In this document: piece after piece, positions 5,193-55,266 of the stretch
Numbering within the stretch: position 1 is the stretch's first letter
Layout: every line of letters begins with the position of its first letter
Source of the DNA: Candidatus Omnitrophota bacterium
GTDB taxonomy: Bacteria; Omnitrophota; Gorgyraeia; Zapsychrales; Aceulaceae
NCBI GenBank assembly: GCA_028693815.1
Contig: JAQUUP010000002.1
Location: 7,056-71,055 of the forward strand
Length of the DNA stretch: 64,000 nt
Reading direction: 5' to 3'
Notes under the pieces: model-generated
The model's database searches: none
Told to the model about the DNA's origin: nothing
Seen by the model: only the letters and a program-made list of their open reading frames with translations
Position numbers and translations under genes: made by a program

Positions 5193-5201
5193 GGAGAAAA
5201 T

Positions 5202-8235: not shown

Positions 8236-8237
8236 AT

Positions 8238-8322: not shown

Positions 8323-8325
8323 ATT

Positions 8326-10706: not shown

Positions 10707-10724
10707 TTAAGAGGAGGGATTGTT

Positions 10725-16112: not shown

Positions 16113-16232
16113 AGTAAACAAAGGAGTTGTCGAAGCACTGTATTTAATGGTAACATTGGCACATCTGTCATTCAAGTGCTTTTCTAAAGAAAGCCCTTGT
16201 GGTAGAATGATTCGTCAAATTTAACTTTAACA

Positions 16233-17135: not shown

Positions 17136-18028
17136 GCCAAGACATATTTGCGCAAAGAAAAATTGTTGATCAGTTTTTGCAAAAGACTGGCTTTGAGCTT
17201 TCATCGTATTCATTTATTAATATTTTTGCATGGCAAGATTTCTTTGATTTTGAGTTTCAAGTGATAGATGAAAGACTGCTTGTTTTTGCTGGTAATGACT
17301 TGGGAAGCTTTCTTTATTTACCTCCTTTAGGGAAAGGCATTTCAAGAGAATGCGTTGACACCTGTTTCAGAATTTTAAATGAGAAAAATAATGGTAAAGG
17401 CGTTGGGCGTATTGAGAATGTGGAAGAAAAGGACTTGGGCCTTTTTGGTGAAAAAGATTTTGTTAGATTTGAGAAATCTAGAGAAACGGTTTATTCTCGA
17501 TGTGATATTGCAAACCTCCAAGGTAATCGATTTAAATCAAAGAGATCGTCTTATAATCATTTTGTTAAAAATTATAAGTTTGAATTTTGCCCGTATCGCG
17601 ACAGCATGAAAAAGAATTGTTTTTTGCTCTATGATCAATGGACAAAAAAGCGAAAAAAGAGAAATAGTGACGAGATCTATCAACAGATGATCGATGAAAG
17701 CGGTGTTGCTTTAAGACGTTGTTTAAATAATTTTCAAAATCTCGGTTTGATTGGATGTGTTGTTTTTGTTGAAGGTAGAATCGTTGGCTACAGTTTTGGG
17801 TTTGCTCTTAAGCAGGATGTTTTTTGCATTCTTTTTGAGATTGCTGATCTAGAAATGAAGGGACTTTCGACTTATCTTTTTAGTGAATTTTGTAAAATGA
17901 AGGCTGTTGAGTCGTTTAATTTTATAAATGTTATGGATGACTTTTCTCTAGACAATGTTCGGTCAACAAAATTATCGTTTAAACCGGCTAAGCAAATTAA
18001 AACGTATACTATTTCACAAAAGGATTAA
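17132..18028 (+). CDS. DUF2156-like protein (homolog of MprF C-terminal aminoacyl-tRNA-dependent transferase domain), tentative
   Basis: A ~300-aa soluble protein with SYSFINIFAWQDFFDF...FLYLPPLG, resembling the LPG_synthase_C/DUF2156 family. Assignment from memory of the family, not verified. ATGA overlap with the upstream gene. Confidence 0.4.
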   Translation: MSQDIFAQRKIVDQFLQKTGFELSSYSFINIFAWQDFFDFEFQVIDERLLVFAGNDLGSFLYLPPLGKGISRECVDTCFRILNEKNNGKGVGRIENVEEKDLGLFGEKDFVRFEKSRETVYSRCDIANLQGNRFKSKRSSYNHFVKNYKFEFCPYRDSMKKNCFLLYDQWTKKRKKRNSDEIYQQMIDESGVALRRCLNNFQNLGLIGCVVFVEGRIVGYSFGFALKQDVFCILFEIADLEMKGLSTYLFSEFCKMKAVESFNFINVMDDFSLDNVRSTKLSFKPAKQIKTYTISQKD

Positions 18029-32364: not shown

Positions 32365-33651
32365 ATGGACCTTTTTATTTTTTTCTCAGAAATTTTAGGC
32401 AGGAAAGTTATTGACCAAAACAATGACTGCATAGGGACTTTGTGTGATATTGGGATGAATGTCGGAAAAGAGGTTTATCCTAAGTCTAGCTATCTTGTTG
32501 TTAAAAGAGGTTTTTTTGGCAAACGCTTTGCCCAAGTTCCTTGGGAAAAGGTGTATGATCTAAGCAAGGCGTTTAGGGTTTCTGTTGTAAAAAGTGAGAT
32601 TCAATATCAGAAGCAACGACCTCAATATGAGCTTACGCTTTGCCGGGATGTTTTAGATCAGCAGGTTGTTGATACGGATGATCAAAAAGTTGTGCGTGTC
32701 AATGATGTGAGTTTTTTAAAAGTTGATAATTTTCTTTATATGGCGCATATGGATGTTGGGTTGCGCGGACTTGCTCGACGGTTGGGTTGGGCAAAAATGA
32801 TCGATAATTTCTTAAAATCATTCTTTCCTAACGTTTTATATTTAACAAAAGAAGATTTTATTCCTTGGAAAAATACACAAATTCTAACGCTTGGGCGCAC
32901 GAAGAATGTTTTGCGTCTTAATATTGCACGAGAAAAATTATCTCAAATTCCTCCAGCTGAATTAGCCGAGATTATGGAGGATTTGGATATTTTTGAGAAA
33001 TATTCCTTATTTAAATCATTTGAGCCTCTTGTTCAGCAGCGAGTGTTTTCTGATCTGTCCACTTCTGAACAAGAAGAAATTATTGATCAAATGAGTGATG
33101 AGGAGGCAGGAAAACTTCTTGAGAGTATTCCGTCTGATGATGCGGTTGATCTTTTGCTGAGTTTGCCAAAAGAGAAGACTTCTGTTTTGATGCGCTTGAT
33201 GGGAACAAAGAAATCTAAGAAATTGCGTGAACTTCTAGATTTTGAAAGAGATTCGGCGGGCGGCTTGATGACCACAGAATATTTATTTTTGCCGCAAAAT
33301 GCATTAGTTAAAGACGCGATGAAAAAAATTCAAGACAATGTGCAATCATCGGCAAATATTTATTATATTTATATTGTTGATGAAAAACATCATTTGCTAG
33401 GGTTCACATCATTGCGTAATTTTATTAATAAAGATTCGTGGATACCAATATTAGATACGTGTTATCCAAAAAACGTTTTTGTACGCACAGATGATGGCAT
33501 GGAAGAAATTGCTCTTCTTTTAGAAAAATATAAGTTTTCCGTGATTCCTGTTTTAGATGAAAACGATGTTTTAAAAGGTGTTATTACCATCGACGATGTT
33601 TTAGAAGAGCTAATTTCTATTGCATGGGGTAAATATAAGGAAAAATTATAA
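32365..33651 (+). CDS. Soluble PRC-barrel + MgtE N-terminal domain + tandem CBS protein (MgtE cytoplasmic Mg2+-sensing module without a TM domain)
   Basis: MgtE_N signature PAELAEIMEDLD...SDDAVDLLLSLP...DSAGGLMTTE, then a CBS pair. No hydrophobic segment. Confidence 0.8.
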   Translation: MDLFIFFSEILGRKVIDQNNDCIGTLCDIGMNVGKEVYPKSSYLVVKRGFFGKRFAQVPWEKVYDLSKAFRVSVVKSEIQYQKQRPQYELTLCRDVLDQQVVDTDDQKVVRVNDVSFLKVDNFLYMAHMDVGLRGLARRLGWAKMIDNFLKSFFPNVLYLTKEDFIPWKNTQILTLGRTKNVLRLNIAREKLSQIPPAELAEIMEDLDIFEKYSLFKSFEPLVQQRVFSDLSTSEQEEIIDQMSDEEAGKLLESIPSDDAVDLLLSLPKEKTSVLMRLMGTKKSKKLRELLDFERDSAGGLMTTEYLFLPQNALVKDAMKKIQDNVQSSANIYYIYIVDEKHHLLGFTSLRNFINKDSWIPILDTCYPKNVFVRTDDGMEEIALLLEKYKFSVIPVLDENDVLKGVITIDDVLEELISIAWGKYKEKL

Positions 33652-34919
33652 TGAAGATTATTGAGCGGATAAAAAACACAAAAATGGTCAGGAACTTTTT
33701 TATATTCTTGGCGATTATGGGGCCAGGAATTATAACGGCAAATGTCGATAATGATGCGGGTGGTATTGCGACTTATTCTTTGGCAGGAGCTCATTTTGGC
33801 TATACGCTTTTGTGGTCGCTTATTCCGATTATGATTGCTTTGATTATTATTCAGGAAATGTGTGCGCGCATGGCTGTTGCGACAGGCAAGGGCTTGGCTG
33901 ATCTTATTCGCGAAAATTTTGGCGTTAAGATTACGTTTCATTTGATGTGGATCTTGCTCGTGGTTAATCTTTTAAACGTTATGGCAGAATTTGCTGGTGT
34001 TGCTGCAAGTCTTGAAATTTTTCATGTGAACAAACTTATTTCTGTTCCCTTGGCGGCATTATTTGTTTGGATGCTCGTGGTTAAAGGGACATATAAGTCA
34101 GTGGAAAAAATATTTTTGACAGCTTGTTTGTTTTATGTGACATATGTTTTTTCTGGATTCATCGCAAAGCCAGAATGGACCGAAGTTCTTAAGCAAACCA
34201 TAGCTCCTGAGTTTACATTTGATTTTAAATATTCTGTCATGTTAGTCGGTATTATTGGAACAACGATTGCTCCTTGGATGCAGTTTTATTTGCAATCATC
34301 AATTGTTGATAAAGGGGTCAGTGTTGAAGAATACAAGCATGTGCGCATGGATGTTGTTGGAGGAAGCATCATCGCTCCAGTGGTTGCTTTTTTTATTGTG
34401 GTAGCGTGTGCAGCGACGTTGTTTAAAGCCGGGATTACGATCGAAAGCGCTAAAGATGCGGCAATGGCTCTTGAGCCGTTGGCAGGACAAAATGCAAAAT
34501 GGTTGTTTGCTTTTGGTCTTTTTAATGCGTCTATTTTTGCAGCGTCTGTTTTGCCGTTATCAACGGCGTATTGTATTTGTGAAGGAATGGGATGGGACAC
34601 TGGCGTTGATAAGCGTTTTGAAGAAGCGCCTCAATTCTTCGGTCTTTATACAGCTTTGATTATTATTGGTGCTGGCGTTGTTTTGATTCCTAATTTTCCT
34701 TTGCTTAAAATTATGTATTTTTCTCAGGTTGGAAACGGCATCTTGCTTCCATTTATTCTGATTTTCATGTTGCTTTTAATTAATGATAAGAAATTGATGG
34801 GAGACTTTATTAATAATCGATTCCTAAATATTATCACGTGGATAACGGTTGTATTGATTATTGTGCTAACAGTATTGATGGTTGTTTTTTCTTTGTTGAA
34901 TCCTGGTCAGTTGATATAA
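33651..34919 (+). CDS. Nramp-related transporter with non-canonical metal site (NRMT-like, putative Mg2+ transporter)
   Basis: Nramp/LeuT-fold topology. TM1 has VDNDAGG instead of DPGN and TM6 has APW instead of MPH (Asn to Gly, Met to Ala), as reported for Nramp-related Mg2+ transporters. TAATG overlap with the upstream gene. Confidence 0.75.
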   Translation: MKIIERIKNTKMVRNFFIFLAIMGPGIITANVDNDAGGIATYSLAGAHFGYTLLWSLIPIMIALIIIQEMCARMAVATGKGLADLIRENFGVKITFHLMWILLVVNLLNVMAEFAGVAASLEIFHVNKLISVPLAALFVWMLVVKGTYKSVEKIFLTACLFYVTYVFSGFIAKPEWTEVLKQTIAPEFTFDFKYSVMLVGIIGTTIAPWMQFYLQSSIVDKGVSVEEYKHVRMDVVGGSIIAPVVAFFIVVACAATLFKAGITIESAKDAAMALEPLAGQNAKWLFAFGLFNASIFAASVLPLSTAYCICEGMGWDTGVDKRFEEAPQFFGLYTALIIIGAGVVLIPNFPLLKIMYFSQVGNGILLPFILIFMLLLINDKKLMGDFINNRFLNIITWITVVLIIVLTVLMVVFSLLNPGQLI

Positions 34920-35275
34920 AAGAGTATAAGTTTTTCAAAAATGAGCATCTTTTCGATATTGGATTCTTGTTTTTTACATGAATGTATTGACAACGGTTCC
35001 TCAGTATGTTAAAAAAAATATAAAGAAAGTTAACGTAGGTTCTTAAAATTATGATTTTATTCATGAACAAGTACGAAAATTTAGGTATTTCCTTTTCAAG
35101 GATTTTTGTCTTCTTAACAAGGCGGGCAAGTCCTGCTGCTCGAGGTTTGTGGATGGGAACAACGGCTTTAGCGAGTGGGCTTCATTGACATACTATGTCC
35201 ATCAAATAAGATTTTCAAACGAAAGGATTTCATAAAAGAATTATAACTTAAACTTATAATTCTTTTTTTTTGATC

Positions 35276-36289
35276 ATGACAATGATAATTGGTTTGACAT
35301 ATGATGCAAAAGAAGATTGTCCTGTACGCCAAGGTCAGCCTATTGATTTTAATGCTGAACTAGATCCGCCGGATACGATCAATGGTATTATCGCGGCGCT
35401 AGAGTCTGGTGGGCACAAAGTTAAGAAAATAGGAAATTTTAGAAATCTTCTTTCACAGATTGATTGTCTTTGTGTTGACATTGTTTTTAATATTTCTGAA
35501 GGGTTGGTTGGAAGAAACAGAGAATCGCAGATTCCAATGTTGCTTGAGCTGTATGATATTCCATATATTGGATCAGATGCGCTAACGCTTGGAATAACGT
35601 TGGACAAGATGGTTTCCAAAAAATGCTTTGTTGCTGATAATATTCCAACAGCGCGATCATTGATCGCAAGGTCAGTTGAGGACCTAAAAGATCTTGGAGG
35701 CCTTCAGTTTCCTTTGATGGTTAAACCGTGCTATGAAGGAACATCCAAAGGGATTACATCATTATCGCGAGTTGAGAATTCAGAATCACTAGAGACCCAG
35801 GTAAGGTTTGTTACCAACCAATATCATCAGCCAGCGATCGTTGAGGAGTTCATCAAAGGAAGAGAGTGCACGGTTGTTGTTTTAGGAAATGATGAGCCTA
35901 TCCCTATGCCTATTGTGCAATATCAGATTGATGACCAGCTTGATGGAGATGCTTTTTATACTTCTGAGCATGTGCGCAAAGAAAGTGTTAATTATATTTG
36001 TCCTGCACAAATAAGCCCAGAGTTGACTTCTCGGCTGCAAGAGCTAGCTGTTAAAGTTTATAAAAGTGTTGGATGCCGCGATTTTGGCCGAGTTGATTTT
36101 CGGATTGACGAGAACGACAATCCGTATGTTCTTGAGATTAATCCGTTGCCGTGTTTAGCACGAAAAGATACTTTTTCGTTTGTTGCCAAAGAGATAGGCA
36201 AATCGTTTGAAGAAATGATTCTTTGGGTTTTGGACGAAGGACTAAAAAGATTAAAAATGGATAAACAAACAATAGGAACTTGCGCATGA
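35276..36289 (+). CDS. Ddl-like ATP-grasp ligase (non-canonical N-terminus)
   Basis: IPYIGSDALTLGITLDKMVSKK, EEFIKGRECTVVVLGN and GRVDFRIDENDNPYVLEINPLP parallel D-Ala-D-Ala ligase motifs, but the N-terminal GGxSxExxVS motif is absent. Confidence 0.65.
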   Translation: MTMIIGLTYDAKEDCPVRQGQPIDFNAELDPPDTINGIIAALESGGHKVKKIGNFRNLLSQIDCLCVDIVFNISEGLVGRNRESQIPMLLELYDIPYIGSDALTLGITLDKMVSKKCFVADNIPTARSLIARSVEDLKDLGGLQFPLMVKPCYEGTSKGITSLSRVENSESLETQVRFVTNQYHQPAIVEEFIKGRECTVVVLGNDEPIPMPIVQYQIDDQLDGDAFYTSEHVRKESVNYICPAQISPELTSRLQELAVKVYKSVGCRDFGRVDFRIDENDNPYVLEINPLPCLARKDTFSFVAKEIGKSFEEMILWVLDEGLKRLKMDKQTIGTCA

Positions 36290-37467
36290 ACCCAATTAAT
36301 GAAACAACTCAACAGGCTCAAGAAAAAGCGATTGCGCTAAGAGTTAGTTTATCTTCTAAAGAGAATCGTTTTATTAATTTCTTTGAGAATGCTACTCCGA
36401 TTGATTGGGAAGATTGGACTTGGCAAATTAGTCATCGTATTAGGACTAAAGAAACTTTGTCTGAGATGCTTGATTTAACTTCTGAAGAAATTCAAGGCAT
36501 CGAAGGGTGTGGGCAAAAACTAACTATGGCAATTCCTCCTTATTTTGCTTCGTTAATCGATCCGAACGATTCTAATTGTCCAATTCGAAGGCAATGTATT
36601 CCTGTCAAAGATGAGTTGATAAAATCTGCCAATGAGCTAGAAGACCCATGCGCAGAAGATAATCATTCTCCTGTGCCAGGGCTTGTACATCGATATCCGG
36701 ATCGAGTTTTGTTTTTAGTTAGCGAAATGTGTGCGATGTATTGCCGTCATTGTACGCGTTCGCGCATGGTTGGAGAAGGAAGGCGCAAGAGAAAAACGTC
36801 TCATTATGAAGATGCATATAATTATATTCGATCAAATAAAAAAATTCGTGATGTTTTAATTTCTGGCGGAGATCCATTGATGCTAAGCGATGAAACGCTC
36901 GAAGACATTATCAAGAACATTAAAGCTATTGCGCATGTGGAGCTTGTCCGCATTGGAACAAGGGTGCCTGTTACGATGCCGCAGCGGATCACTGGCAACT
37001 TAGTGGCTATGCTAAAGAAATATAGTCCTCTTTGGATGAGTATTCATTTTAATCATCCTAAAGAAATTACTAAACGTGTGCGTTTTGCTTGTGAGCTTTT
37101 ATCTGACAATGGTATTCCTTTGGGGAGTCAGACTGTGCTTTTAAAAGGAATTAATGACAAGCCGTATATTATGAAAAAATTAATGCACGAGCTTCTCAAA
37201 ATTCGCGTTCGTCCATATTATATTTATCAATGTGATCCGATTGTCGGGTCTAGCCATTTTCGCACACCAATTTCAACAGGAATTGGCATTATTGATAAAT
37301 TGCGGGGGCATACTACCGGGTACGCAGTTCCCAAGTATGTTATTGACGCGCCCGGCGGCGGTGGCAAAATTCCTATCGAACCGAATGCCATTATTTCTCA
37401 AGATCAGAATACATATGTTTTGCGGAATTTTGCCGGAGAACAATATACTCATCACGATCCACAATAA
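36286..37467 (+). CDS. kamA: Lysine 2,3-aminomutase family radical-SAM enzyme (KamA-like)
   Basis: CAMYCRHCTRSR (CxxxCxxC) plus KamA-family flanks. At 395 aa it is longer than EpmB. ATGA overlap with the ATP-grasp gene. Confidence 0.8.
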   Translation: MNPINETTQQAQEKAIALRVSLSSKENRFINFFENATPIDWEDWTWQISHRIRTKETLSEMLDLTSEEIQGIEGCGQKLTMAIPPYFASLIDPNDSNCPIRRQCIPVKDELIKSANELEDPCAEDNHSPVPGLVHRYPDRVLFLVSEMCAMYCRHCTRSRMVGEGRRKRKTSHYEDAYNYIRSNKKIRDVLISGGDPLMLSDETLEDIIKNIKAIAHVELVRIGTRVPVTMPQRITGNLVAMLKKYSPLWMSIHFNHPKEITKRVRFACELLSDNGIPLGSQTVLLKGINDKPYIMKKLMHELLKIRVRPYYIYQCDPIVGSSHFRTPISTGIGIIDKLRGHTTGYAVPKYVIDAPGGGGKIPIEPNAIISQDQNTYVLRNFAGEQYTHHDPQ

Positions 37468-37679: not shown

Positions 37680-40600
37680 ATGAGAAACTTGTCTAAGAAA
37701 TCAAATACTTTTCGCTATGTCACAATTTTTACTTTGGTGTCTTTCTTTTTTCTTTCTGTCATTCCATCTCAAGCTTTAGCGCAAGGGGTGCTGGGTCTGC
37801 CCCAGCCGGGCGCAATGGTTAATTTAAGCCCTTCGTTTCATCCGGCTCTCCTAAGAGGTATTCAAATCCAGCCCAATGATCCTTTGCGCTTTGATTTTAT
37901 TGTGGATACCGGGGAAACAGGCCTTGAAGGCAAAGCCTTTGAAGTCGAAGCCACCAAGCTCATCAAGTATTTTCTCGCTTCCCTCACCATTCCTGAAGAA
38001 CAGTTTTGGGTCAACCTGTCTCCTTATGAGAAAGAGCGTATCATTGCCGATTCCTTAGGGGAGACCGAGATGGGCCGTGACCTTTTAGCTCAAGATTATG
38101 TTTTAAAGCAATTAACTGCCACCCTTGTGGATCCCAATAGTGATTTAGGCAAGAAGTTCTGGGAGCGTGTTTATAAAAAGGCCTATGAGATGTATGGCAC
38201 AACCCAGATGCCAGCCAATACCTTTAATAAGATATGGATTATTCCAGATGAGGCTGTTGTTTACGAAGAAGGCAACATCGCATTTGTTGGAGAAAGACAT
38301 TTAAAGGTGATGCTCGAAGAAGATTATCTTTCCCTTCAAAGCAATGCCAAGCGAGAAGACTTAGGCGTTAGCAAGCTCCAAGACGAAGAAATGAAGAAAC
38401 TCGCCGCGGTTTCTTCTGGCGTTGTCCGTGATGTCCTTGTTCCTGAAATAGAGAAAGAAGTCAACGGCGGTAAGCTCTTTGCTAATTTGCGACAGATCTT
38501 TGATGCCTTGATCTTGGCCACATGGTATAAGAAAACCCTTAAAGATAGTCTTTTAGGCCAGGTCTATGTGGATAAAAACAAGACGAAGGGTGTCGATGTT
38601 GATGATAAAACGATTAAAGATCAGATTTATCAGCAATACCTTGAGTCCTTTAAGAAGGGTGTCTTTAACATGATCAAGGTTGAAAAGGATGCTGTCTCTG
38701 GTAAGAATATCCCGCGCAAGTACTTTTCAGGTGGTATCACCACGGGTTCATCTGTTCTGAGTATCAAAAAATTGGTTGTCAAGAAAATAAGGTTTTTAGG
38801 AAAAGAAGTTAGAAATCTTTTTATGTCATTTGATGAAAAGGGCAGAATGTTCAAAGTCGGCGCAGGTGTTGGGACGAGTCAAGGTTTTCCTCCTAGAGCG
38901 CCTACCTTAGGAGAACGACAGGAAGAGAGGTACGAAAATCTTTTGGCTTCTTTGCCGAATGCAACGGGAGAAAATGCTCGTACAATTTTCTTGCAGTTAG
39001 CCGGAAGGGTTGTGGAAAATCCCGGAGAATGGTGGCACCGTGTCGCTTTGTATATGAGCAATGAATTATTTCCTTCGGCGGTTGACGCATTGATAATGGA
39101 AGCTGACTCTCTTTTAAAAATTAAAAAGGAGTTATCAAGTGTACAAGATTATTCTAGAAAGAATATGCCGTATGTCAATAATCTTACACAGCAAGAAAGA
39201 AAATCAGGCAGAGCTATCAATCAATTGCTTATGATTCTGCTGAGATCCATCGACATAAAGACAGTAAGCCTTGTAAGCGATTCTGATCTCGATAAATTAG
39301 ATCAGTTAAAGAGAAATGCTCCGGGGGAAGGTATTCTTCAAGGTGGAGAGCAGGAATATCTTAGTGGCCTTATCTTTCGTGCGAGAAACATGAATGCTCA
39401 GGCAGAGCTTCTTAAATTAAAGGGGCTGGCCGGGACATATAATCGGATCGGAGATTCTCGCCAAGCAGACCCTCAAAAAAGTGCTCCAACATTGAAGGAA
39501 TTACAAACTCGATTATTGCCTTATTTAGAGGGAATTAACTTAAATTTAGCTGAAGCCCTAGAGTCTTGGGGCGACAGAGATGGGTTTGTATTGATCGAGC
39601 TCATGCTCCGCGAGGAAGAAGGAGCTAGAGTTTTCAATCAAGCAGTTGGCAAACAGCCAGCGGAAGAAATTTCTACAATGACAGGTGAAGGGCTGATACG
39701 TTTTCTTTATGATCAAGGCTTGAGCGAACATACAAGCAGTGAAGTTCGCAAGGCCGGCTCGGCGATTATCGAGCGAGTAAAAGATATTTTAGAGGAAAAC
39801 TATCCAACTCTTATGAGCAAAGGTCTTTATTTTAAAGAAGTAGCAACCAACAAGGGGAATGCCCTTTTATTATCATCTTATCATGAAGAAGGATCGTTAA
39901 TGATATATCAAGATATGTCCAATGAAGTTGATGGCCAGCAAAATGTTGTAATTCAACAAATAGTAAAGCTGCTTGAACTACCAGATGAAGAAGAAATAGG
40001 AGGGGTAAGTGGCGTAAAGAGGTATTTTATTAACTCAAGATATAATATACTTTTTGAAAGAAATGTTAACAGAACTACTGATGAAGACATTAAGAATGTT
40101 ATTGATCTTTTTATTAAGGACAAAGGGAGAGTCGCTTCGTCAGGGGTGAGCGTTACAACTAATAGGGTTTTAAGAGTTTTGAATACTTATGCCTTGCAAA
40201 AGAGAGGCATTGAGCGAAAAATTATAAATCTTCTTTCTGGCCCTAAGGCAGTATTTATATTCAGGTCAGGCCAAAGCTCAAAAGAGGGAGGCTTATTCTT
40301 TTATGAAGGGAAAAATGGGATTTCTTATATTAAAAGAGGAAGAGCTTATGTTGTTATTCCGGATTTTGTTTCAGATCCCTTAAGCATAATTGCTTCAAGA
40401 AAAACTGTAAAGATGAATGTGAGTGATTTAACAGAAGAAAAGATTCGAGAGGTTATTGATGAATTTCTTGCAGAAGATTCACAAAAAGAACAAGAATTTA
40501 AGAAATTAAAAGATGAGTTATCTCAAAAAGATAAAGAAAAAATGGATTCTTTAATACGGGGCCTTTTGGTATTTACAGAGCACTGTAAGGAAATTGAAGA

Positions 40601-42242
40601 AGATTCCGGTCCGCTGCTGGTAAGAACTGCCTTAAGCAAAGAGATTGACAGGATCGATGGCGATCTTTTTACTTTGCATGAAGGATATCAAGGATTTCCG
40701 CAGGCTCAACAAAAGATTGATTCCGCTAGAAATATTTTTAAAGAATTTCAAACTGATTTAATCGGGTCTCTCACGCTTTCCAATCCAAAAGATACTGCGT
40801 TTGATAGGACCATGCGATCTAAATCGTATGTTTATAATCGAGCTATTTCTAACCTTAGATCTTTGACTGGATCATCATCGCTTACTTTTAATCAAGCAAA
40901 GCAATGGGTTTTAAAAATTTTGAAAGAGGATGCCAATAGTCGAAATCCTGTCTTTTTAGAGGGCGAGATTGAGCGAGTTAGTAAAGTTGAAACCATACTA
41001 GGTTTACAAGTTGTTAGCCTTAGATTGCTTCGAGATCTTGACAAAATGAACGCTGAAGATGTGCAAAATCCTCTAGGGCTTATCAACGCAAAAGAAGCCT
41101 TAGTTGATTTTCGTTATGCAGTCCGAGAAGCACGAAATCAAAAACGGGGGAGTGTGGGCTCTAAACAAGATTATTTTAATAAGAAATATTCTGTCATGAC
41201 TCGAACTGAAGCACGCGATGAAATCTTAGCTATCATGAACACAATTAAAGAGCGAGATCCTAATAATGCGCTTGCCTGGAGAGAAAATAGAATGGAACAA
41301 CAAGTAGGAGATTTTCTCACCTTCCATAGTTTATATAATTTTGCCTCTGAATTTTTAGATGACGCTGAGTCTGATTTAAAAGAAAATCCTCCAGAGACTC
41401 TTGAAGATGAACATTTAATTTATGAGGTTATTGTTCGCCTAAACAATCTTCTTTATAGTATTGAAGATCAGGCAAGGCAAGAGCTTGGAGACGAGCTAGT
41501 GGAGGAAGATGGGTTACAGGGCTTAACTTTTGCTAATGGACGAATAGCAGATAGCGCTGATAAGGCCTCATCAGGCGATATTGATTTAAATGCAGATGGC
41601 ACCGGCCAAGGTACCGCCGGCTCGGCGATCACGCTGGATCAGGCAAAAAAGATGGTCATGGGAGAAATAGCAAGGCTTAAGCAGCCAGGCAATGAAGGAG
41701 AGCGAACGATCTTTCCTGATAAAATACGAAATCAATCGGTCGTGATTAATAAGAATGGCATAGCCATGCTTGCCTTTGGTGGGTTGATAGGCCAGGATCA
41801 GGCGCCGAGTACCCAGTATGATTTCTTAGAAATTGCGTCTGATTTGTTGGTGGAACTTTCAGAGAATCTTGAAAATCCAGATAAAATTATAGAGACGTTG
41901 GTAAGCGGAAAGGAGATCAAGATTAAGGATTTTGTGGGCAATGCCAAAGAGATCGATATTCAAAGCCTAACTTCAAGACAGCAAGATGTTTTTAGGACTG
42001 TTATAGCGGCCAGAGCCGAAAAGCAGACGGTTGGTGGTATTGATTTAGGTCAGGCAAGTTCGGTATTGCAAATCAAGCGTGATGGAAACGGAATGGTGTT
42101 ACCGCTTAATCAGCAGTCGTTGGAATTTCAGAATATTCAAGGATTTACACCGTTTATTATTAATGTGACAACGTTTAATCCCGCAGCCTTATTAAGTCAG
42201 ATTGAGTCTGGAGGTAGCGAGGTTGCATCGTTGGATACGTAA
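37680..42242 (+). CDS. Giant secreted protein (1520 aa), hypothetical
   Basis: Signal peptide with no recognisable catalytic motif. The N-terminal ~1.5 kb is markedly GC-richer than the rest of the gene and the genome. Confidence 0.5.
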   Translation: MRNLSKKSNTFRYVTIFTLVSFFFLSVIPSQALAQGVLGLPQPGAMVNLSPSFHPALLRGIQIQPNDPLRFDFIVDTGETGLEGKAFEVEATKLIKYFLASLTIPEEQFWVNLSPYEKERIIADSLGETEMGRDLLAQDYVLKQLTATLVDPNSDLGKKFWERVYKKAYEMYGTTQMPANTFNKIWIIPDEAVVYEEGNIAFVGERHLKVMLEEDYLSLQSNAKREDLGVSKLQDEEMKKLAAVSSGVVRDVLVPEIEKEVNGGKLFANLRQIFDALILATWYKKTLKDSLLGQVYVDKNKTKGVDVDDKTIKDQIYQQYLESFKKGVFNMIKVEKDAVSGKNIPRKYFSGGITTGSSVLSIKKLVVKKIRFLGKEVRNLFMSFDEKGRMFKVGAGVGTSQGFPPRAPTLGERQEERYENLLASLPNATGENARTIFLQLAGRVVENPGEWWHRVALYMSNELFPSAVDALIMEADSLLKIKKELSSVQDYSRKNMPYVNNLTQQERKSGRAINQLLMILLRSIDIKTVSLVSDSDLDKLDQLKRNAPGEGILQGGEQEYLSGLIFRARNMNAQAELLKLKGLAGTYNRIGDSRQADPQKSAPTLKELQTRLLPYLEGINLNLAEALESWGDRDGFVLIELMLREEEGARVFNQAVGKQPAEEISTMTGEGLIRFLYDQGLSEHTSSEVRKAGSAIIERVKDILEENYPTLMSKGLYFKEVATNKGNALLLSSYHEEGSLMIYQDMSNEVDGQQNVVIQQIVKLLELPDEEEIGGVSGVKRYFINSRYNILFERNVNRTTDEDIKNVIDLFIKDKGRVASSGVSVTTNRVLRVLNTYALQKRGIERKIINLLSGPKAVFIFRSGQSSKEGGLFFYEGKNGISYIKRGRAYVVIPDFVSDPLSIIASRKTVKMNVSDLTEEKIREVIDEFLAEDSQKEQEFKKLKDELSQKDKEKMDSLIRGLLVFTEHCKEIEEDSGPLLVRTALSKEIDRIDGDLFTLHEGYQGFPQAQQKIDSARNIFKEFQTDLIGSLTLSNPKDTAFDRTMRSKSYVYNRAISNLRSLTGSSSLTFNQAKQWVLKILKEDANSRNPVFLEGEIERVSKVETILGLQVVSLRLLRDLDKMNAEDVQNPLGLINAKEALVDFRYAVREARNQKRGSVGSKQDYFNKKYSVMTRTEARDEILAIMNTIKERDPNNALAWRENRMEQQVGDFLTFHSLYNFASEFLDDAESDLKENPPETLEDEHLIYEVIVRLNNLLYSIEDQARQELGDELVEEDGLQGLTFANGRIADSADKASSGDIDLNADGTGQGTAGSAITLDQAKKMVMGEIARLKQPGNEGERTIFPDKIRNQSVVINKNGIAMLAFGGLIGQDQAPSTQYDFLEIASDLLVELSENLENPDKIIETLVSGKEIKIKDFVGNAKEIDIQSLTSRQQDVFRTVIAARAEKQTVGGIDLGQASSVLQIKRDGNGMVLPLNQQSLEFQNIQGFTPFIINVTTFNPAALLSQIESGGSEVASLDT

Positions 42243-52233: not shown

Positions 52234-55200
52234 CTAGAATCTTTTTTTGTAGAAAAGACGAAAGATGTTTTGTGTATCGATTGTAGGCGTTGTGCTTCCC
52301 ATGTATGGCGTTGAAGACGCATAGGCGCTATAAATTGACGGGCCTACACCATAGCTGAAACTTAGCTTACTATCTTCATCAAATAAATACTGTGCTTCAA
52401 AAAAGATGTTGTGATGATCTTTCATCACGATGTCTTCACTTCCGTTATAAACAACATCGTTAACATTTTTTAAGCGACTCCAAGTATATTTTGCGAAGAA
52501 CCCAAGTTTTTTTGTTGCAAGATAAGAAGCCGCAAGGCCAATATGATTCATGTTGTCATCAATTGGGCCTGCGTATTCGTATGGATTGCGGGCAAAGTCT
52601 AGATAGATATTCCATTGATCGTTAGGTGTGATTTCAATTCCTGTTCTAAAAATGTGGTGATATTCGTAAGGCGGCAAAGGAAAATTTCCTTGATCATAAA
52701 GATATGAATAAGTTCTTCTGTAGATGTTGTCATAGCTTTCGTATGTTGTTGTGCCGATATCGTTTAGAATCCCGCGAGGAAAGTTGTCGACTCCGGCAGC
52801 AAAATCATTGGTGTGTTCCCATGCTCCGTTCCAAGAAAGATATTTTGAGAAATCGTATTTTAATCCAATGGAGGTCGTGTATCCGCTTGGGTCGACCCCG
52901 TCTTCGATGGCGTCATTTAAAACAGGTTCACCGTTTGCATCTGTAATGTAAGGATCAACCCCTCCGGTTGTTTTTGGCAGATGGTGTCCAATAAGTAAGA
53001 GGCGTGTTTCTAACTTATCGGTTGCTTGATATGACCATTCCGTGCGTGCGACGGTTTCGATATACTTATTTGAGCTCGTGGCATGTGCGTTTCGGATATC
53101 TGTTAGTCCTTTTAATCTTCCAGACCAGAAAGAAGAATCTGTTCGCCAATTAATCACGTAACGACCATAGTCAATGCTGTTTCCAATACGAAACGGTTCG
53201 ATGTCATAATAAGAAAGGCCAGGGTAATTCATTGGATCGCGAAATGTGATGTGTCGACTCCAAAATTGATCGTCTTTGGTTTCGCGATAATTTGCTAGGG
53301 TTGATTCAAATCCGTTATCCATTCTGGTCATGCGTAATTGTGTTTTAAAAAATGTTTCTTCGTCTTTTTCTGGTTGTATTGCAAGATAGTTAGTGTCTGG
53401 AGATTCGATACCGTTAGTGGTGCCAACAATAGAAAGATCGTAAGCGTTGCCATCAGTACGTGTATTGTAATTTTCAAAAGAGCGATCTTGTTCAAGGAAA
53501 GAAAAAGCATATTCTGCTTTTATTTGAAGGCCAGGATTAATAAGCCATCCGGCATCGTAGCCACTGACGATATTGTAGGCATCAATATTACCGTTAATAA
53601 GGCCGAGATGAATATTTTCAATATTGCCAATATAGAAATTGTCGGAAACATTTTTTTGAATACGGAAACTCCCAGGAATTGCATCAAATTCGTCGTAGTC
53701 TTGCCATAGCGTTTTAGGTGAAGCGACAACCATATCAATCTGAGTGTCGTCTGTTGTCGTGTTAAGAGAGAACCCTCGTAGCGCTGTTAAGCGCTTGCCA
53801 TCACTATCTCGGGTTTGGAATGCTAAGGCATCGTTCCATCGACCTTTTGTAAAATCTTGAGGACTGTTCCATATATTGATGTGTCCAGGAGTCCAGTTAG
53901 CCAACCAAGGACTTTCTTCCCACCAGATATGGTTATTCGATAATCCCAAAGGATCATTAGAGCTTAAAGCTTTGTTTTCAAATCCGTAAGGGAAAAATTG
54001 AATCTTAGTTTCGTCTGTCGGTTGATAATCAACCCATAATTCTCTTAGAGGCCAGAAATTTTTCTTGACGTGCATGTCTGGATAAGTGAAGAAATTCACA
54101 TTTTTAGAAGTGAACATTCCTCCGGGGACTGTAGAGTTACTGACTTTAAGTTCGGGAAGCGCGATGATGTCACCGTAATCAAGTGTAAAAAGATTGCTGT
54201 TGACTGTGTAGCCCGTATTGCCCCAAGAGAGAAATTGGAGGTCAATGGTATCGACTAAGGCGTATCCTCTCAAAGTAAGCTTGTCAGTTTTTCCGGTAAA
54301 ACTCCATGGGTCAATAGTGATATTCGCGTGGTAAGAAAGCTTGCTATCTTTTGGATTAACGTCAATATCAAAGCTAAGCCGGTCGTAAATGCCTGGGTCA
54401 TAAGTATTCATTCTTTTGTTAAGCTGATCTGGTGAAATTAAACGCCAGTTTTTTTCATTTAAATCAAAATTGGCTCTGTTCCAAAGTAGATCATTGTTTT
54501 TAGCATCGTATCCAAGCCCAATACGAACTTCACCGCTAACATCTACATCCGCTTCTATTGTTTTATGTATTTTTTTTGAAGCAGCAGGATTGGGCGCTTC
54601 TTTAGATTCAGATACAGAAAGTTCTTTGGATTTGGATGAGCTATCAAGAATAGCAGTGGGTTTTGATTCGGTTATTGTTTTATTATTTCTAACACTAGCG
54701 GTATTCTTTTCTTCAGGCTTAGATAAATTATTTTTTTTAGGTTCAGATGAGACAACGGGGTCAGAAGTGGTTTTTGATATTTTTTCTGTCTTATTTGTTT
54801 TTATTTCATTGTTAGGAGCCGAAGAGCTTTTTGCTTGATATTTTCTTTCAATAGCATCGAGTTCTTTTGCTATTTTTTCTTCGATTGTTTCAATTTTTTT
54901 AGGTTTGGCAGGTTCCTTAGGTTTGGTTGCTTGTTCGGGTTTATCAAGTTGCTTTGGCGCATCAGGCTGCTTAAGTTTGTAAGAAGCTTGTTTTACAAAG
55001 CCACCTTTTTGTTCCTCAAAATCTTTAGACCATTTAATAAGTTCAACATATGCTCGAGCTTTTTGGCTAGCGGGATTGATTGCCAAGATTCTTTGAAATT
55101 CGATTAAAGCCTCATTGTATTGTCCTTTTTCGTAAAGCATGATAGCAAAATCAGTATCTACTGCAGAATCTGAAGCCAAGGTAAGAGAAGGTGAAAAAAC

Positions 55201-55266
55201 AAGAAATACCCACAATGCTATTGCACAGCAAGGCAATAGTATCATGCGCTTATGAAACGTTTTCAA
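52234..55266 (-). CDS. Large outer-membrane protein: signal peptide, short TPR-like segment, K/P/E-rich linker, ~750-aa predicted beta-barrel ending in Phe
   Basis: Cleavable N-terminus, a low-complexity KPKEPAKPKK region, alternating aromatic/Gly beta-strand-like C-terminal region, and an ...LFYKKRF terminus. Confidence 0.5.
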   Translation of the reverse strand: MKTFHKRMILLPCCAIALWVFLVFSPSLTLASDSAVDTDFAIMLYEKGQYNEALIEFQRILAINPASQKARAYVELIKWSKDFEEQKGGFVKQASYKLKQPDAPKQLDKPEQATKPKEPAKPKKIETIEEKIAKELDAIERKYQAKSSSAPNNEIKTNKTEKISKTTSDPVVSSEPKKNNLSKPEEKNTASVRNNKTITESKPTAILDSSSKSKELSVSESKEAPNPAASKKIHKTIEADVDVSGEVRIGLGYDAKNNDLLWNRANFDLNEKNWRLISPDQLNKRMNTYDPGIYDRLSFDIDVNPKDSKLSYHANITIDPWSFTGKTDKLTLRGYALVDTIDLQFLSWGNTGYTVNSNLFTLDYGDIIALPELKVSNSTVPGGMFTSKNVNFFTYPDMHVKKNFWPLRELWVDYQPTDETKIQFFPYGFENKALSSNDPLGLSNNHIWWEESPWLANWTPGHINIWNSPQDFTKGRWNDALAFQTRDSDGKRLTALRGFSLNTTTDDTQIDMVVASPKTLWQDYDEFDAIPGSFRIQKNVSDNFYIGNIENIHLGLINGNIDAYNIVSGYDAGWLINPGLQIKAEYAFSFLEQDRSFENYNTRTDGNAYDLSIVGTTNGIESPDTNYLAIQPEKDEETFFKTQLRMTRMDNGFESTLANYRETKDDQFWSRHITFRDPMNYPGLSYYDIEPFRIGNSIDYGRYVINWRTDSSFWSGRLKGLTDIRNAHATSSNKYIETVARTEWSYQATDKLETRLLLIGHHLPKTTGGVDPYITDANGEPVLNDAIEDGVDPSGYTTSIGLKYDFSKYLSWNGAWEHTNDFAAGVDNFPRGILNDIGTTTYESYDNIYRRTYSYLYDQGNFPLPPYEYHHIFRTGIEITPNDQWNIYLDFARNPYEYAGPIDDNMNHIGLAASYLATKKLGFFAKYTWSRLKNVNDVVYNGSEDIVMKDHHNIFFEAQYLFDEDSKLSFSYGVGPSIYSAYASSTPYMGSTTPTIDTQNIFRLFYKKRF

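What the first reader, a model, noticed from the sequence alone, without database searches (positions are those of the whole stretch)
35276..37467. Ddl-like ATP-grasp ligase translationally coupled (ATGA) to lysine 2,3-aminomutase
KamA-family radical-SAM enzymes make beta-lysine. Their known partners are EpmA (EF-P beta-lysylation) or an acetyltransferase (N-epsilon-acetyl-beta-lysine osmolyte).
- Here the partner is a D-Ala-D-Ala-ligase-type ATP-grasp that lacks the canonical Ddl N-terminal motif.
- It could ligate beta-lysine to an amino acid or amine acceptor, giving a beta-lysyl dipeptide/amide compatible solute or a modification precursor.
- I am not aware of this pairing being described.
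- A GC-richer ~100-nt patch at 35096-35200, upstream of the pair in an otherwise AT-rich spacer, might be a structured leader.
Basis: inference. Interest (0 to 1): 0.6.

Follow-up and report, generated by a model that had tools for sequence, protein, structure and literature searches.

The report
Beta-lysine maker paired with ATP-grasp ligase
Two overlapping genes in an Omnitrophota bacterium encode an enzyme that turns lysine into beta-lysine and a D-Ala-D-Ala-ligase-like enzyme that is not a cell-wall ligase; the same pair recurs across this phylum and is fused into one protein in many archaea and bacteria, which points to a widespread, uncharacterised pathway that builds a beta-lysine-containing amide or peptide.

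Summary
An ATP-grasp gene (35276-36289) overlaps a KamA-family gene (36286-37467) by ATGA.

The aminomutase keeps the lysine-specific residues of Clostridium LAM: Arg134, Asp293, Asp330 and Lys337. It lacks the C-terminal zinc region.

The ATP-grasp has the Ddl fold and the full catalytic core. It fails every NCBI Ddl cut-off, and Ser281 is replaced by Asp.

The pairing is not coincidental:
- KamA follows the ligase in 79 of the 85 loci then held (about 80 distinct); the other 6 end at a contig edge.
- About half of those loci carry a second ligase paralog between the two genes.
- More than 100 protein clusters from archaea and bacteria are KamA-ATP-grasp fusions. One fusion has the opposite domain order.
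- The fuller operon elsewhere is two ATP-grasp genes, a GNAT gene and KamA.

Occurrence in wall-less, EF-P-less archaea argues against cell-wall and EF-P roles. The best reading is ATP-dependent ligation of beta-lysine into a small amide or peptide. The product is unknown, and I found no description of the system.

The GC-rich patch is real but is not a structured RNA. The conserved upstream elements are a promoter-like box and a terminator-like hairpin next to the start codon.

The parts
35276..36289 (+). Ddl-fold ATP-grasp carboxylate-amine ligase (337 aa), here called paralog 1. It is not a D-Ala-D-Ala ligase.
   Evidence: - Pfam PF07478 scores 115 bits, and no Ddl N-terminal domain is found.
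- The best NCBIfam Ddl model gives 174.6 bits against a cut-off of 243.
- The AF2 model has pLDDT 89, and Foldseek's top PDB hits are Ddl at 21-24% identity.
- The catalytic residues K97, K144, E180, E187, R255, D257, E270 and N272 (DdlB numbering) are kept in 86/86 sequences.
- Ser281 is replaced by Asp in 84/86, and Lys215/Tyr216 are lost.
36286..37467 (+). KamA-family radical-SAM/PLP lysine 2,3-aminomutase (393 aa), a LAM/AblA type that lacks the C-terminal zinc region.
   Evidence: - It matches 2A5H (C. subterminale LAM) at E=1e-143.
- The alignment keeps the Cys cluster CxxxCxxC, Arg134, Asp293, Asp330 and the PLP lysine Lys337.
- Cys268 is Lys, and the protein ends at LAM residue 368.
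- TIGR00238 passes at 344 against 199. TIGR03820 AblA gives 514 against 525.4, and EpmB gives 250 against 369.
36286..36289 (+). ATGA overlap of the ligase stop codon and the aminomutase start codon, indicating translational coupling.
   Evidence: Read directly from the sequence.
35234..35271 (+). Terminator-like hairpin (arms 35238-35246 and 35254-35262, extendable by A/U pairs) followed by a run of nine T (35263-35271). It ends 4 nt before ATG 35276, and no Shine-Dalgarno sequence lies between.
   Evidence: - A 13-bp hairpin appears in both the MFE and centroid folds.
- 58 of 81 distinct homologous leaders have a hairpin (dG <= -6) plus T6 within 100 nt of the start, against 47 of 1600 random windows.
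- Stem sequences differ between lineages while pairing is kept.
34987..35015 (+). Promoter-like element P1: TTGACA, a 17-nt spacer, then TGT-TAAAAA (an extended -10).
   Evidence: - Read from the sequence.
- The same [CT]TTGAC[AT] box with a TG-n-TAAAAA element lies upstream of the leader in 50 of 68 distinct homologous leaders.
- The consensus scan tool does not list it, because its second hexamer lacks the final T.
35185..35212 (+). Second promoter-like site P2: TTGACA, a 16-nt spacer, then TAAGAT. It lies between the GC-rich patch and the hairpin.
   Evidence: - It is the top-scoring site (10/12) in the consensus scan, although the total number of sites is not above the shuffles.
- It is conserved in Ca. 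Aceula lacicola (L006).
35096..35200 (+). It contains an 11-codon ORF (35153-35188). It is not supported as a structured RNA.
   Evidence: - GC is 0.49 against 0.23-0.30 in the flanks.
- The fold z-score is -0.08 for the patch and -1.2 for 35080-35275.
- No Rfam hit appears at E<=10.
- The homologous position in L001 and L006 holds a 19-codon ORF, MCGxNxIY[ED]xWxxMxGEFY.

Best explanation
The two translationally coupled genes form one pathway.

**Step 1.** The KamA enzyme, which uses radical SAM, PLP and a [4Fe-4S] cluster, converts free L-lysine to beta-lysine. By its similarity to LAM/AblA this is probably the 3S isomer.

**Step 2.** The Ddl-fold ATP-grasp enzyme uses ATP to activate a carboxylate as an acyl-phosphate and joins it to an amine. 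This incorporates beta-lysine into an amide or short peptide.

**Variation between lineages.** Half of Omnitrophota add a second ligase, which suggests a second amide bond. Many other lineages also add a GNAT, which suggests N-acetylation. The window therefore carries the minimal version of a cross-domain module that makes a small beta-lysine-containing molecule.

**Proposed substrates.** My preferred sub-hypothesis is that beta-lysine is the acyl donor, as beta-alanine is in carnosine synthase. In this paralog the acceptor would be an amine that carries a further positive charge rather than an alpha-carboxylate, because the Ser that holds the D-Ala2 carboxylate in Ddl is Asp here.

**Proposed role.** The likely role is a cytoplasmic solute or counter-ion of the compatible-solute kind.

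**What is shown and what is inferred.**
- Shown: the enzyme families, the residue patterns, the conserved linkage and the fusions.
- Inferred: the order of steps, the acyl donor, the acceptor and the physiological role.
For: **Linkage.**
- ATGA overlap.
- KamA follows the ligase in 79 of the 85 loci then held; the remaining 6 are truncated.
- The pair stays together while flanking genes change.
- Rosetta-stone fusions occur in both orders, P0185 and P0220.
- More than 100 clusters of KamA-ATP-grasp fusions come from Thermoplasmatota, Methanocellales, Woesearchaeota, Nanoarchaeota, Spirochaetales and Deltaproteobacteria.

**Substrate of KamA.** Arg134, Asp293, Asp330 and Lys337 of LAM are kept. 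The best equivalog is AblA.

**Ligase competence.** All ATP, Mg and catalytic residues are invariant in 86 paralog-1 sequences and 43 paralog-2 sequences.

**Not Ddl.** The ligase is below all Ddl cut-offs, and Ser281 is Asp with the omega-loop Lys/Tyr lost.

**Small-molecule reading.**
- Fuller operons are G-G-N-K, KG-GN or KG-G-G, that is several ligases plus a GNAT. This resembles the GNAT plus ATP-grasp logic of N-acetylglutaminylglutamine amide synthesis (established knowledge).
- Two archaeal loci sit beside MscL, Na+/H+ exchangers, Na+/Ca2+ exchanger, CorA or TrkA_N genes.
- Two close relatives of the ligase that have no KamA nearby are followed by a Peptidase_S58 (DmpA/BapA family) gene. 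Characterised members of that family cleave N-terminal beta- or D-aminoacyl residues (the family property is from established knowledge).
Against: - No product is known and no acceptor can be named.
- The pocket argument rests on a sequence alignment with DdlB, not on a docked model.
- The N-terminal part of that alignment (Glu15 to Asp) is unstable.
- Phylum-wide retention in freshwater and groundwater organisms with small genomes is not typical of an osmolyte pathway.
- The window lacks the second ligase and the GNAT of the fuller module, so its product may differ, or the missing parts may lie elsewhere in the genome.
- The ortholog of the KamA-fused ligase domain is paralog 2, not the paralog present in the window (a rough NJ tree).
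- The GNATs are generic and not AblB-like.
Confidence: 0.6

Rival explanations
1. Protein modification. The ATP-grasp replaces EpmA and attaches beta-lysine to elongation factor P, or to another protein such as a ribosomal protein in the manner of RimK.
For: - KamA-family EpmB plus a ligase is the known route to beta-lysyl-EF-P (established knowledge).
- The operon sits among housekeeping and translation genes: era, rpsU, mnmE, purH and folC.
- It is retained phylum-wide in reduced genomes.
- No epmA-like gene is found in the window.
Against: - The aminomutase is LAM/AblA-like, not EpmB-like (EpmB model 250 bits against a cut-off of 369).
- The same module is common as a fusion in archaea, which use aIF5A with hypusine and have no EF-P (established knowledge).
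- One to three ligases plus a GNAT is more than a single-residue modification needs.
- ATP-grasp protein modifiers normally activate the protein's carboxylate, not the free amino acid's (established knowledge).
- No efp gene lies in the window or in any of the loci.
Confidence: 0.08
2. Cell-envelope role. The Ddl-like ligases add beta-lysine, or a beta-lysyl dipeptide, to a peptidoglycan precursor, as D-aspartate ligase does in Enterococcus.
For: The closest solved structures and sequence families are all Ddl/Van ligases. ATP-grasp ligases that decorate stem peptides are known (established knowledge).
Against: - Fused and clustered orthologous modules occur in Thermoplasmatota and DPANN archaea, which have no peptidoglycan (established knowledge).
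- No mur, ddl or fts genes lie in the window or in the flanks of about 80 loci.
- The ligase pocket lacks the Ser that binds the carboxylate of the incoming D-Ala.
Confidence: 0.06
3. Coincidence. The ATP-grasp is the organism's divergent housekeeping D-Ala-D-Ala ligase and merely sits next to kamA.
For: JGI and some NCBI records name family members 'D-alanine-D-alanine ligase'. No other ddl is present in the 64-kb window.
Against: - It is below every curated Ddl cut-off.
- Ser281 is Asp, and Lys215/Tyr216 are lost.
- Adjacency is kept in every informative locus and becomes a fusion elsewhere, including in wall-less archaea.
- A long branch separates the whole family from DdlB.
Confidence: 0.03
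4. Reversed or different chemistry. Either the ligase acts first on lysine and the aminomutase then isomerises the lysyl moiety of the product, or the module is a secondary-metabolite (antibiotic) route such as an oligo-beta-lysine polycation.
For: - The ligase gene comes first in Omnitrophota.
- One fusion (P0185) has Gln at the Asp293 position and sits beside a GntC/VioD-like PLP enzyme and a RaSEA-like radical SAM enzyme, a natural-product-like setting.
- A KamA-like gene next to an ATP-grasp gene is listed in the Pbo cluster of Pseudomonas syringae (PMC8473136).
- Asp in the acceptor pocket would suit a cationic acceptor such as another beta-lysine.
Against: - The window's KamA keeps Arg134, which binds the free alpha-carboxylate, and both Asp residues that bind the free epsilon-ammonium. 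This favours free lysine as substrate.
- The housekeeping context and vertical, phylum-wide inheritance are unlike a typical antibiotic cluster.
- No transporter or resistance gene is linked in Omnitrophota.
Confidence: 0.15

Closest known systems
AblA/AblB pathway for N-epsilon-acetyl-beta-lysine (methanogens and others)
   Same: - The KamA enzyme is LAM/AblA-type, and AblA is its best equivalog.
- It is coupled to one tailoring enzyme in a two-gene unit.
- Fuller versions of the module elsewhere also contain a GNAT.
   Different: - The partner in the window is an ATP-grasp ligase, not an acetyltransferase.
- The GNATs of related modules do not match AblB (TIGR03827 at most 17.7 bits against a cut-off of 205).
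- The KamA lacks the C-terminal ~50 residues.
EpmA/EpmB beta-lysylation of EF-P
   Same: A KamA-family aminomutase supplies beta-lysine to an ATP-dependent ligase.
   Different: - The ligase is an ATP-grasp (acyl-phosphate chemistry), not a class II aaRS paralog (acyl-adenylate chemistry).
- The aminomutase is not EpmB-type.
- The module also occurs in archaea.
D-alanine-D-alanine ligase (DdlB, 2DLN/1IOV) and Van ligases
   Same: Same fold (TM 0.75-0.86), and the same ATP-binding, Mg-binding and catalytic residues.
   Different: - 21-24% identity.
- No GGxSxE N-terminal motif, and no Pfam Dala_Dala_lig_N match.
- His63 is Glu, Val152 is Lys, the omega-loop Lys215/Tyr216 are absent, Gly276 is Ser/Cys/Asn, and Ser281 is Asp.
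Ngg (GNAT plus ATP-grasp) of N-acetylglutaminylglutamine amide synthesis; carnosine synthase (ATP-grasp, beta-alanyl-histidine)
   Same: - ATP-grasp ligases make small cytoplasmic peptides.
- In Ngg the ligase is fused to a GNAT, as in the KG-GN loci.
- In carnosine synthase the acyl donor is a beta-amino acid (established knowledge).
   Different: There is no sequence-level membership: the weak TIGR03103 hit scores 17 bits against a cut-off of 569. The building block here is beta-lysine made in situ by a radical SAM enzyme.
pboF/pboG of the Pseudomonas syringae Pbo cluster
   Same: A lysine-2,3-aminomutase-like radical SAM gene lies next to an ATP-grasp gene (PMC8473136, table).
   Different: The ATP-grasp there is reported as L-amino-acid-ligase-like, not Ddl-like. 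It belongs to a 16-gene thermoregulated toxin-related island, and its product and the roles of both genes are uncharacterised.

Membership tests
KamA family / lysine 2,3-aminomutase | Family-level HMM above the curated cut-off | tested here: met
   TIGR00238 scores 344.3 bits against a cut-off of 199.2.
KamA family / lysine 2,3-aminomutase | CxxxCxxC cluster motif, PLP-binding Lys337, carboxylate-binding Arg134, and epsilon-ammonium-binding Asp293 and Asp330 (C. subterminale numbering) | tested here: met
   All are conserved in the alignment with 2A5H. The roles of these residues are taken from established knowledge of the 2A5H structure.
KamA family / lysine 2,3-aminomutase | AblA equivalog cut-off, and the C-terminal zinc site (Cys268 plus the C-terminal Cys triad) | tested here: not met
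   - TIGR03820 scores 514 bits against a cut-off of 525.4.
- Only profile positions 4-361 of 417 are covered.
- Cys268 is Lys, and the protein ends at LAM residue 368.
EpmB (EF-P beta-lysylation aminomutase) | Equivalog HMM cut-off | tested here: not met
   TIGR03821 scores 250 bits against a cut-off of 369.3.
Glutamate 2,3-aminomutase | Equivalog cut-off, and replacement of Asp293/Asp330 by Lys/Asn | tested here: not met
   TIGR04368 scores 467 bits against a cut-off of 650. Both Asp residues are retained.
ATP-grasp superfamily (Ddl-like branch) | ATP-grasp domain HMM and the nucleotide-binding, Mg-binding and catalytic residues | tested here: met
   - PF07478 scores 115 bits against a cut-off of 24.
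- K97, K144, E180, E187, R255, D257, E270 and N272 are invariant.
- The fold matches Ddl structures.
D-alanine-D-alanine ligase (Ddl) | Curated family cut-offs | tested here: not met
   The best scores are 174.6 bits (NF002378, cut-off 243) and 147.7 bits (TIGR01205, cut-off 245.65).
D-alanine-D-alanine ligase (Ddl) | Substrate residues: the Glu15-Ser150-Tyr216 triad, Lys215, Ser281/Leu282, and the N-terminal domain PF01820 | tested here: not met
   - No PF01820 hit.
- Lys215 and Tyr216 are not conserved.
- Ser281 is Asp in 84/86 sequences.
D-alanine-D-alanine ligase (Ddl) | Being the only ddl of the genome, or sitting in a mur/fts context | not testable with these tools
   Only 64 kb of the genome is held. 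It contains no other ddl and no mur/fts genes.
AblA/AblB N-acetyl-beta-lysine system | An adjacent AblB-type GNAT | tested here: not met
   - No GNAT is found among window ORFs of at least 150 aa.
- The GNATs in related modules score at most 17.7 bits on TIGR03827 against a cut-off of 205.
Known riboswitch or leader families (Rfam) | A covariance-model match in the leader | tested here: not met
   Nothing is found at E<=10 in 34800-35400. No leader hit appears in 10 related loci at gathering thresholds.

The most novel reading that the evidence does not exclude
The window holds the minimal form of an undescribed module that spans both domains of life. The module consists of KamA, one to three Ddl-like ATP-grasp ligases and often a GNAT, and it makes a new class of non-ribosomal, non-NRPS beta-lysine peptide.

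In Omnitrophota a lineage-specific ligase with an Asp in the acceptor pocket would join beta-lysine to a cationic amine, giving for example beta-lysyl-beta-lysine oligomers or a beta-lysyl-polyamine. Expression would be gated by a conserved leader in which a Shine-Dalgarno-like box, a UUG mini-ORF with lysine codons, and a terminator abutting the start codon act as a ribosome-dependent attenuator that senses lysine supply.
Probability: 0.35. Interest if true: 0.75.

Novelty: new variant of a known kind. Interest (0 to 1): 0.62.

Why it matters
Beta-lysine has three established fates:
- fermentation;
- N-acetylation to an osmolyte;
- attachment to EF-P or to NRPS products.

A fourth route is ligation by Ddl-like ATP-grasp enzymes. 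It appears to be common: 581 Omnitrophota-type hits in a scan of one genome per species, 567 hits in metagenomes, and more than 100 fusion-protein clusters in archaea and bacteria. Databases call these proteins only 'D-alanine-D-alanine ligase', 'ATP-grasp domain-containing protein' or 'KamA family radical SAM protein'.

Consequences:
- The 'Ddl' annotation would mislead any inference about peptidoglycan in Omnitrophota and DPANN genomes.
- The module is small and self-contained, and it needs only lysine, SAM and ATP. Its product could therefore be found by simple heterologous expression.
- That would define a new metabolite of ultra-small, uncultured organisms and add beta-amino-acid ligases to the enzyme toolbox.

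Tried and rejected
- **Riboswitch or structured leader.** Rfam at E<=10 on the window leader and at gathering thresholds on 10 loci found nothing in the leaders. Folding the GC patch gave z=-0.08, and folding 35080-35275 gave z=-1.2. RNAalifold on 33 well-aligned leaders found only the terminator hairpin.
- **Promoter/terminator scan tool.** It misses the AT-rich hairpin, which has fewer than 3 GC pairs, and it misses P1. Its site counts are not above the shuffles. I therefore counted hairpin-plus-T-run sites against random windows myself.
- **Conserved leader peptide.** A UUG mini-ORF often follows the GGAG box at 9-14 nt and often has Lys codons. Its length and stop codon are not conserved, so coding is unproven.
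- **EF-P link.** No efp gene is found in the window or in the loci.
- **Canonical ddl.** None is found in the window or loci.
- **Defence system.** PADLOC gave only a noise-level viperin hit for the radical SAM domain.
- **Taxonomy of the ligase relatives.** The cluster look-up returned no organism names.
- **AblB-type GNAT in related modules.** Not supported.
- **Literature.** Six searches and three papers were opened. Nothing describes this system. My memory that blasticidin BlsG (arginine aminomutase) is paired with an ATP-grasp-type ligase could not be checked in the held papers, so I do not use it as evidence.
Full report
**What is in the window.** The window comes from a Candidatus Omnitrophica/Omnitrophota MAG: the ligase is 100% identical to an NCBI protein of that origin. 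Two ORFs on the + strand match the finding.
- The first is a 337-aa protein from ATG 35276 to TGA 36289. Alternative starts are TTG 35270 and ATG 35282. ATG 35276 aligns with the start of the nearest homologue.
- The second is a 393-aa protein from ATG 36286 to TAA 37467.
- They overlap as ATGA at 36286-36289.
- The neighbours are housekeeping genes:
  - era, a YjeF_N protein and nth;
  - an MgtE_N/CBS protein coupled to an Nramp transporter;
  - then the pair;
  - a 1520-aa ORF with no Pfam domain;
  - rpsU, purH, folC and mnmE.

**The aminomutase.**
- It matches C. subterminale lysine 2,3-aminomutase (2A5H) at E=1e-143 over residues 27-392.
- In that alignment the following are all conserved:
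  - the CxxxCxxC cluster;
  - Arg134, which binds the substrate carboxylate;
  - Asp293 and Asp330, which bind the lysine epsilon-ammonium;
  - Lys337, which binds PLP.
- The roles of these residues come from established knowledge of 2A5H. By the same knowledge, glutamate 2,3-aminomutases replace the two Asp residues.
- NCBIfam ranks AblA first (514 bits, cut-off 525.4). Next come glutamate 2,3-aminomutase (467/650), arginine 2,3-aminomutase (404/600) and EpmB (250/369). The KamA family model passes (344/199).
- The narrow miss on AblA has a simple cause. The protein ends at LAM residue 368 and covers only positions 4-361 of the 417-position profile, and Cys268 is Lys.
- The zinc site that links LAM subunits (Cys268 plus a C-terminal Cys triad, from my memory of the 2A5H paper) is therefore absent.
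- All Omnitrophota homologues end at the same place. The KamA part of the fusion proteins also ends there, immediately before the ligase domain begins.

**The ligase.**
- Pfam finds only the C-terminal Ddl domain and generic ATP-grasp models.
- All Ddl and Van models of NCBIfam hit, and all are far below their cut-offs. The best is 174.6 against 243.
- An AlphaFold model built on 30 homologues is confident (pLDDT 89). Its best PDB matches are Ddl enzymes at 21-24% identity with TM 0.75-0.86.
- I confirmed that my remembered E. coli DdlB sequence is identical to 1IOV/2DLN. I then mapped its functional residues onto 86 sequences of the window's type (paralog 1) and 43 of the second Omnitrophota paralog.
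- Both paralogs keep K97, K144, E180, E187, R255, D257, E270 and N272, so both should be active ligases.
- Both have Glu for His63, and Lys for Val152. Arg stands for Glu68 in paralog 1, and Arg or Lys in paralog 2.
- An Asp aligns with Glu15. The N-terminal alignment is not robust, and it shifted in a second alignment.
- Paralog 1 differs further:
  - the omega-loop Lys215/Tyr216 are not conserved;
  - Gly276 is Ser, Cys or Asn;
  - Ser281, which holds the carboxylate of the incoming D-Ala in Ddl (established knowledge), is Asp in 84 of 86 sequences.
- Paralog 2, the KamA-fused ligase domains and the ligases of other operon types keep Lys215 and have Ser or Ala at 281. The Asp pocket is therefore peculiar to the type present in the window.

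The best 80 were all Omnitrophota-type MAGs. Some carried automatic 'Planctomycetales' labels and one a 'Patescibacteria' label.
- KamA lies downstream on the same strand in 79 of the 85 loci held at that point. These were the 80 scan loci plus 5 from earlier look-ups, a few of which are duplicate records of one place.
- In the 6 exceptions the contig ends first; five of them break off inside a second ligase gene.
- Two layouts occur.
  - In the first, the ligase is followed by KamA with a gap of 0-387 nt. The window belongs to this group.
  - In the second, seen in about 45 loci, a 330-aa paralogous ligase sits between them. It is about 38% identical to the first.
- The flanks vary. The MgtE_N/CBS and Nramp genes may be present or absent, and the downstream gene may be the 1520-aa ORF, a DJ-1 gene or rpsU. 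The pair stays intact throughout.

**Fusions.** A full HMM search of 1.84 billion representatives gave 2804 relatives at E<=1e-30, many with two ligase domains in one chain. Two representatives carry an aminomutase domain instead.
- P0185 has the ligase at the N-terminus and the KamA-like domain at the C-terminus, as a single verified ORF.
- P0220 has KamA at the N-terminus and the ligase at the C-terminus.

Searching with P0220 returned more than 100 distinct 90%-identity clusters of full-length fusions (680-880 aa, 38-82% identity).
- Where named, they come from Thermoplasmatota, Methanocellales, Woesearchaeota, Nanoarchaeota, Spirochaetales and Deltaproteobacteria.
- All are labelled only 'KamA family radical SAM protein' or 'lysine 2,3-aminomutase'.
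- Fusion in both orders, together with conserved adjacency and translational coupling, is strong evidence that the two activities act in one pathway.

**The larger module.** Loci around the fusions always carry more ligases:
- Woesearchaeota: KG-G.
- Two Thermoplasmatota-like loci: KG-GN, where the second ligase is fused to a GNAT.
- A deltaproteobacterium: KG-G-G.

Here K is KamA, G is a Ddl-like ligase and N is a GNAT.

A metagenome scan with an alignment of fusions gave 567 relatives. I classified the domains in 84 loci, namely the 80 from that scan plus the four fusion loci L090-L093; many are truncated. The commonest layouts were G-G-N-K (23), G-G-K (9), G-N-K (5), K-G (5), KG-GN (3) and G-K (3).
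- The GNATs are generic. RimI-like models score best, and AblB scores at most 17.7 bits against a cut-off of 205.
- A rough neighbour-joining tree puts Omnitrophota paralog 2 with the KamA-fused ligase domains, paralog 1 in its own clade, and the GNAT-fused ligases in a third clade.
- The window therefore carries a reduced G-K version that retains the lineage-specific ligase. Paralog 2 is not in the 64-kb window, and whether it lies elsewhere in the genome is unknown.

**What it most likely does.** The enzyme families, residue patterns and linkage are shown. Everything else below is inferred.
- Free L-lysine is converted to beta-lysine. The ligase or ligases then use ATP to form one or more amide bonds involving it, and a GNAT acetylates the product where present.
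- A small-molecule product fits best, for four reasons.
  - Thermoplasmatota and DPANN archaea have neither peptidoglycan nor EF-P (established knowledge). A cell-wall or EF-P role cannot be the common function.
  - Several ligases plus an acetyltransferase mirror the GNAT/ATP-grasp logic of N-acetylglutaminylglutamine amide synthesis (established knowledge).
  - Two archaeal loci lie among MscL, Na+/H+ exchanger, Na+/Ca2+ exchanger, CorA or TrkA_N genes.
  - Two close ligase relatives without KamA are followed by a Peptidase_S58 gene. Characterised members of that family (DmpA, BapA) remove N-terminal beta- or D-aminoacyl residues (established knowledge).
- The last point, together with the carnosine synthase precedent, makes me favour beta-lysine as the acyl donor.
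- The Asp at position 281 suggests that the acceptor of the window's ligase carries a positive charge rather than an alpha-carboxylate.
- These last two steps are low-confidence inferences from alignment.
- Phylum-wide retention in freshwater and groundwater nanobacteria does not fit a classical osmolyte well. The role may instead be a general cytoplasmic cation or counter-ion, or something not yet imagined.

**The leader.**
- The GC-rich patch is real. It folds no better than shuffled sequence, has no Rfam match, and has diverged even from the closest relatives.
- In those relatives the equivalent position holds a 19-codon ORF, conserved between two Aceula species with synonymous changes. The window has an 11-codon ORF that ends at the same TGA.
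- Two things are conserved across the phylum.
  - A [CT]TTGAC[AT] box with a TG-n-TAAAAA extended -10 is present in 50 of 68 distinct leaders. In the window it lies at 34987-35015.
  - A hairpin followed by at least six T lies within 100 nt of the ligase start in 58 of 81 distinct leaders, against 2.9% of random windows. Its stem sequences differ between lineages. In the window it is 35234-35271 and ends 4 nt before the ATG, with no Shine-Dalgarno sequence.
- Between these two elements, the clade with two ligases has a conserved primary sequence, GGAGG..AUAAAYUAAGUUGGAAAAAAUUGGAUAGA, but no conserved structure.
- That sequence reads as a Shine-Dalgarno-like box followed 9-14 nt later by a UUG mini-ORF. 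The mini-ORF often has Lys codons, but its length is not conserved.
- This looks like an attenuator that depends on a ribosome or a protein rather than a riboswitch. It could also be a separate short transcript. I did not resolve this.

**Novelty.**
- No paper in the searchable library combines an aminomutase with an ATP-grasp ligase in this sense.
- The one adjacency I found is a table entry for pboF/pboG in a Pseudomonas syringae cluster. Both genes are uncharacterised, and the ATP-grasp is of the L-amino-acid-ligase type (PMC8473136).
- The main genomic survey of Omnitrophota does not mention lysine, peptidoglycan or osmolytes (PMC10066038).
- Both enzyme families and the general chemistry are known, so I rate this a new variant of a known kind: an undescribed but widespread fate for beta-lysine.

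**Verdict.** The functional pairing is strongly supported, and the ligase is not Ddl. The product and role are unknown. Interest is 0.62.

Noticed in passing
window 37680-42242 (+): A 1520-aa ORF with a signal-peptide-like N-terminus and no Pfam or PADLOC match lies between kamA and rpsU. It is absent at this position in every related locus inspected, so it looks like a lineage-specific insertion into conserved synteny.
   Followed up: partly
window 32365-33651 and 33651-34919 (+): A soluble protein with PRC-barrel, MgtE_N and CBS domains but no MgtE membrane domain overlaps by one base the start of an Nramp transporter gene. The same pair occurs in Ca. Aceula meridiana (L001); L004 carries the soluble protein alone, with no Nramp gene next to it. 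This suggests an MgtE-type cytoplasmic sensor recruited to regulate an Nramp metal transporter.
   Followed up: no
L016 about 5840-5885 and the equivalent position in about 25 other two-ligase loci: An inverted repeat brackets the -10 element of the operon promoter (ATATTGTG...N17-19...CACAATAT). Both arms change together in some species (ATGTTGT/ACAACAT in L052; G-U-compatible variants in L079). It could be an operator or a DNA/RNA hairpin overlapping the promoter. It was seen by eye and was not quantified.
   Followed up: no
L001 about 5866-5925; L006 about 5033-5092; window 35153-35188: A small ORF lies in the leader of the Aceula clade: MCGMNWIYEMWRVMSGEFY in L001 and MCGFNTIYDVWQEMCGEFY in L006. 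The two share 11 of 19 residues and show synonymous changes. In the window it is shortened to MGTTALASGLH. The stop codon overlaps a TTGACA box.
   Followed up: partly
L086 6001-9432; L089 676-3811: Proteins with two fused Ddl-like ATP-grasp domains (675-724 aa) are followed by a Peptidase_S58 (DmpA/BapA family) gene in two unrelated contexts with no KamA nearby. This may be a synthesis and hydrolysis pair for a peptide with an N-terminal beta- or D-amino acid.
   Followed up: partly
L088 3618-8088: An ATP-grasp-aminomutase fusion has Gln at the LAM Asp293 position. It is preceded by a RaSEA-like radical SAM protein and a PLP enzyme closest to GntC and capreomycidine synthase VioD. This suggests a cluster for a cyclic-arginine-derived beta-amino acid product.
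   Followed up: partly
L002 2831-2918 (-); L066 10493-10578 (+): c-di-GMP-I class riboswitch aptamers score above Rfam gathering thresholds in two Omnitrophota loci, a few kb from the ligase-kamA operon. In L002 the aptamer lies just upstream of a minus-strand gene encoding a Hint-domain protein.
   Followed up: no
window 17132-18028 (+): A stand-alone 298-aa protein matches only the C-terminal (aminoacyl-tRNA transferase) domain of phosphatidylglycerol lysyltransferase (LPG_synthase_C). It has no membrane flippase part and is another possible consumer of activated lysine in this genome.
   Followed up: no
window 5178-11180 (+): A V/A-type ATPase operon (A, B, D, I-like and c subunits) is present rather than an F-type ATP synthase. 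A DUF2764 protein lies just upstream.
   Followed up: no
window 52234-55266 (-) and 14484-16175 (-): Two large ORFs on the minority strand (1010 aa and 563 aa) have no Pfam match. The first sits between a GH94 phosphorylase gene and a sugar ABC transporter operon.
   Followed up: no
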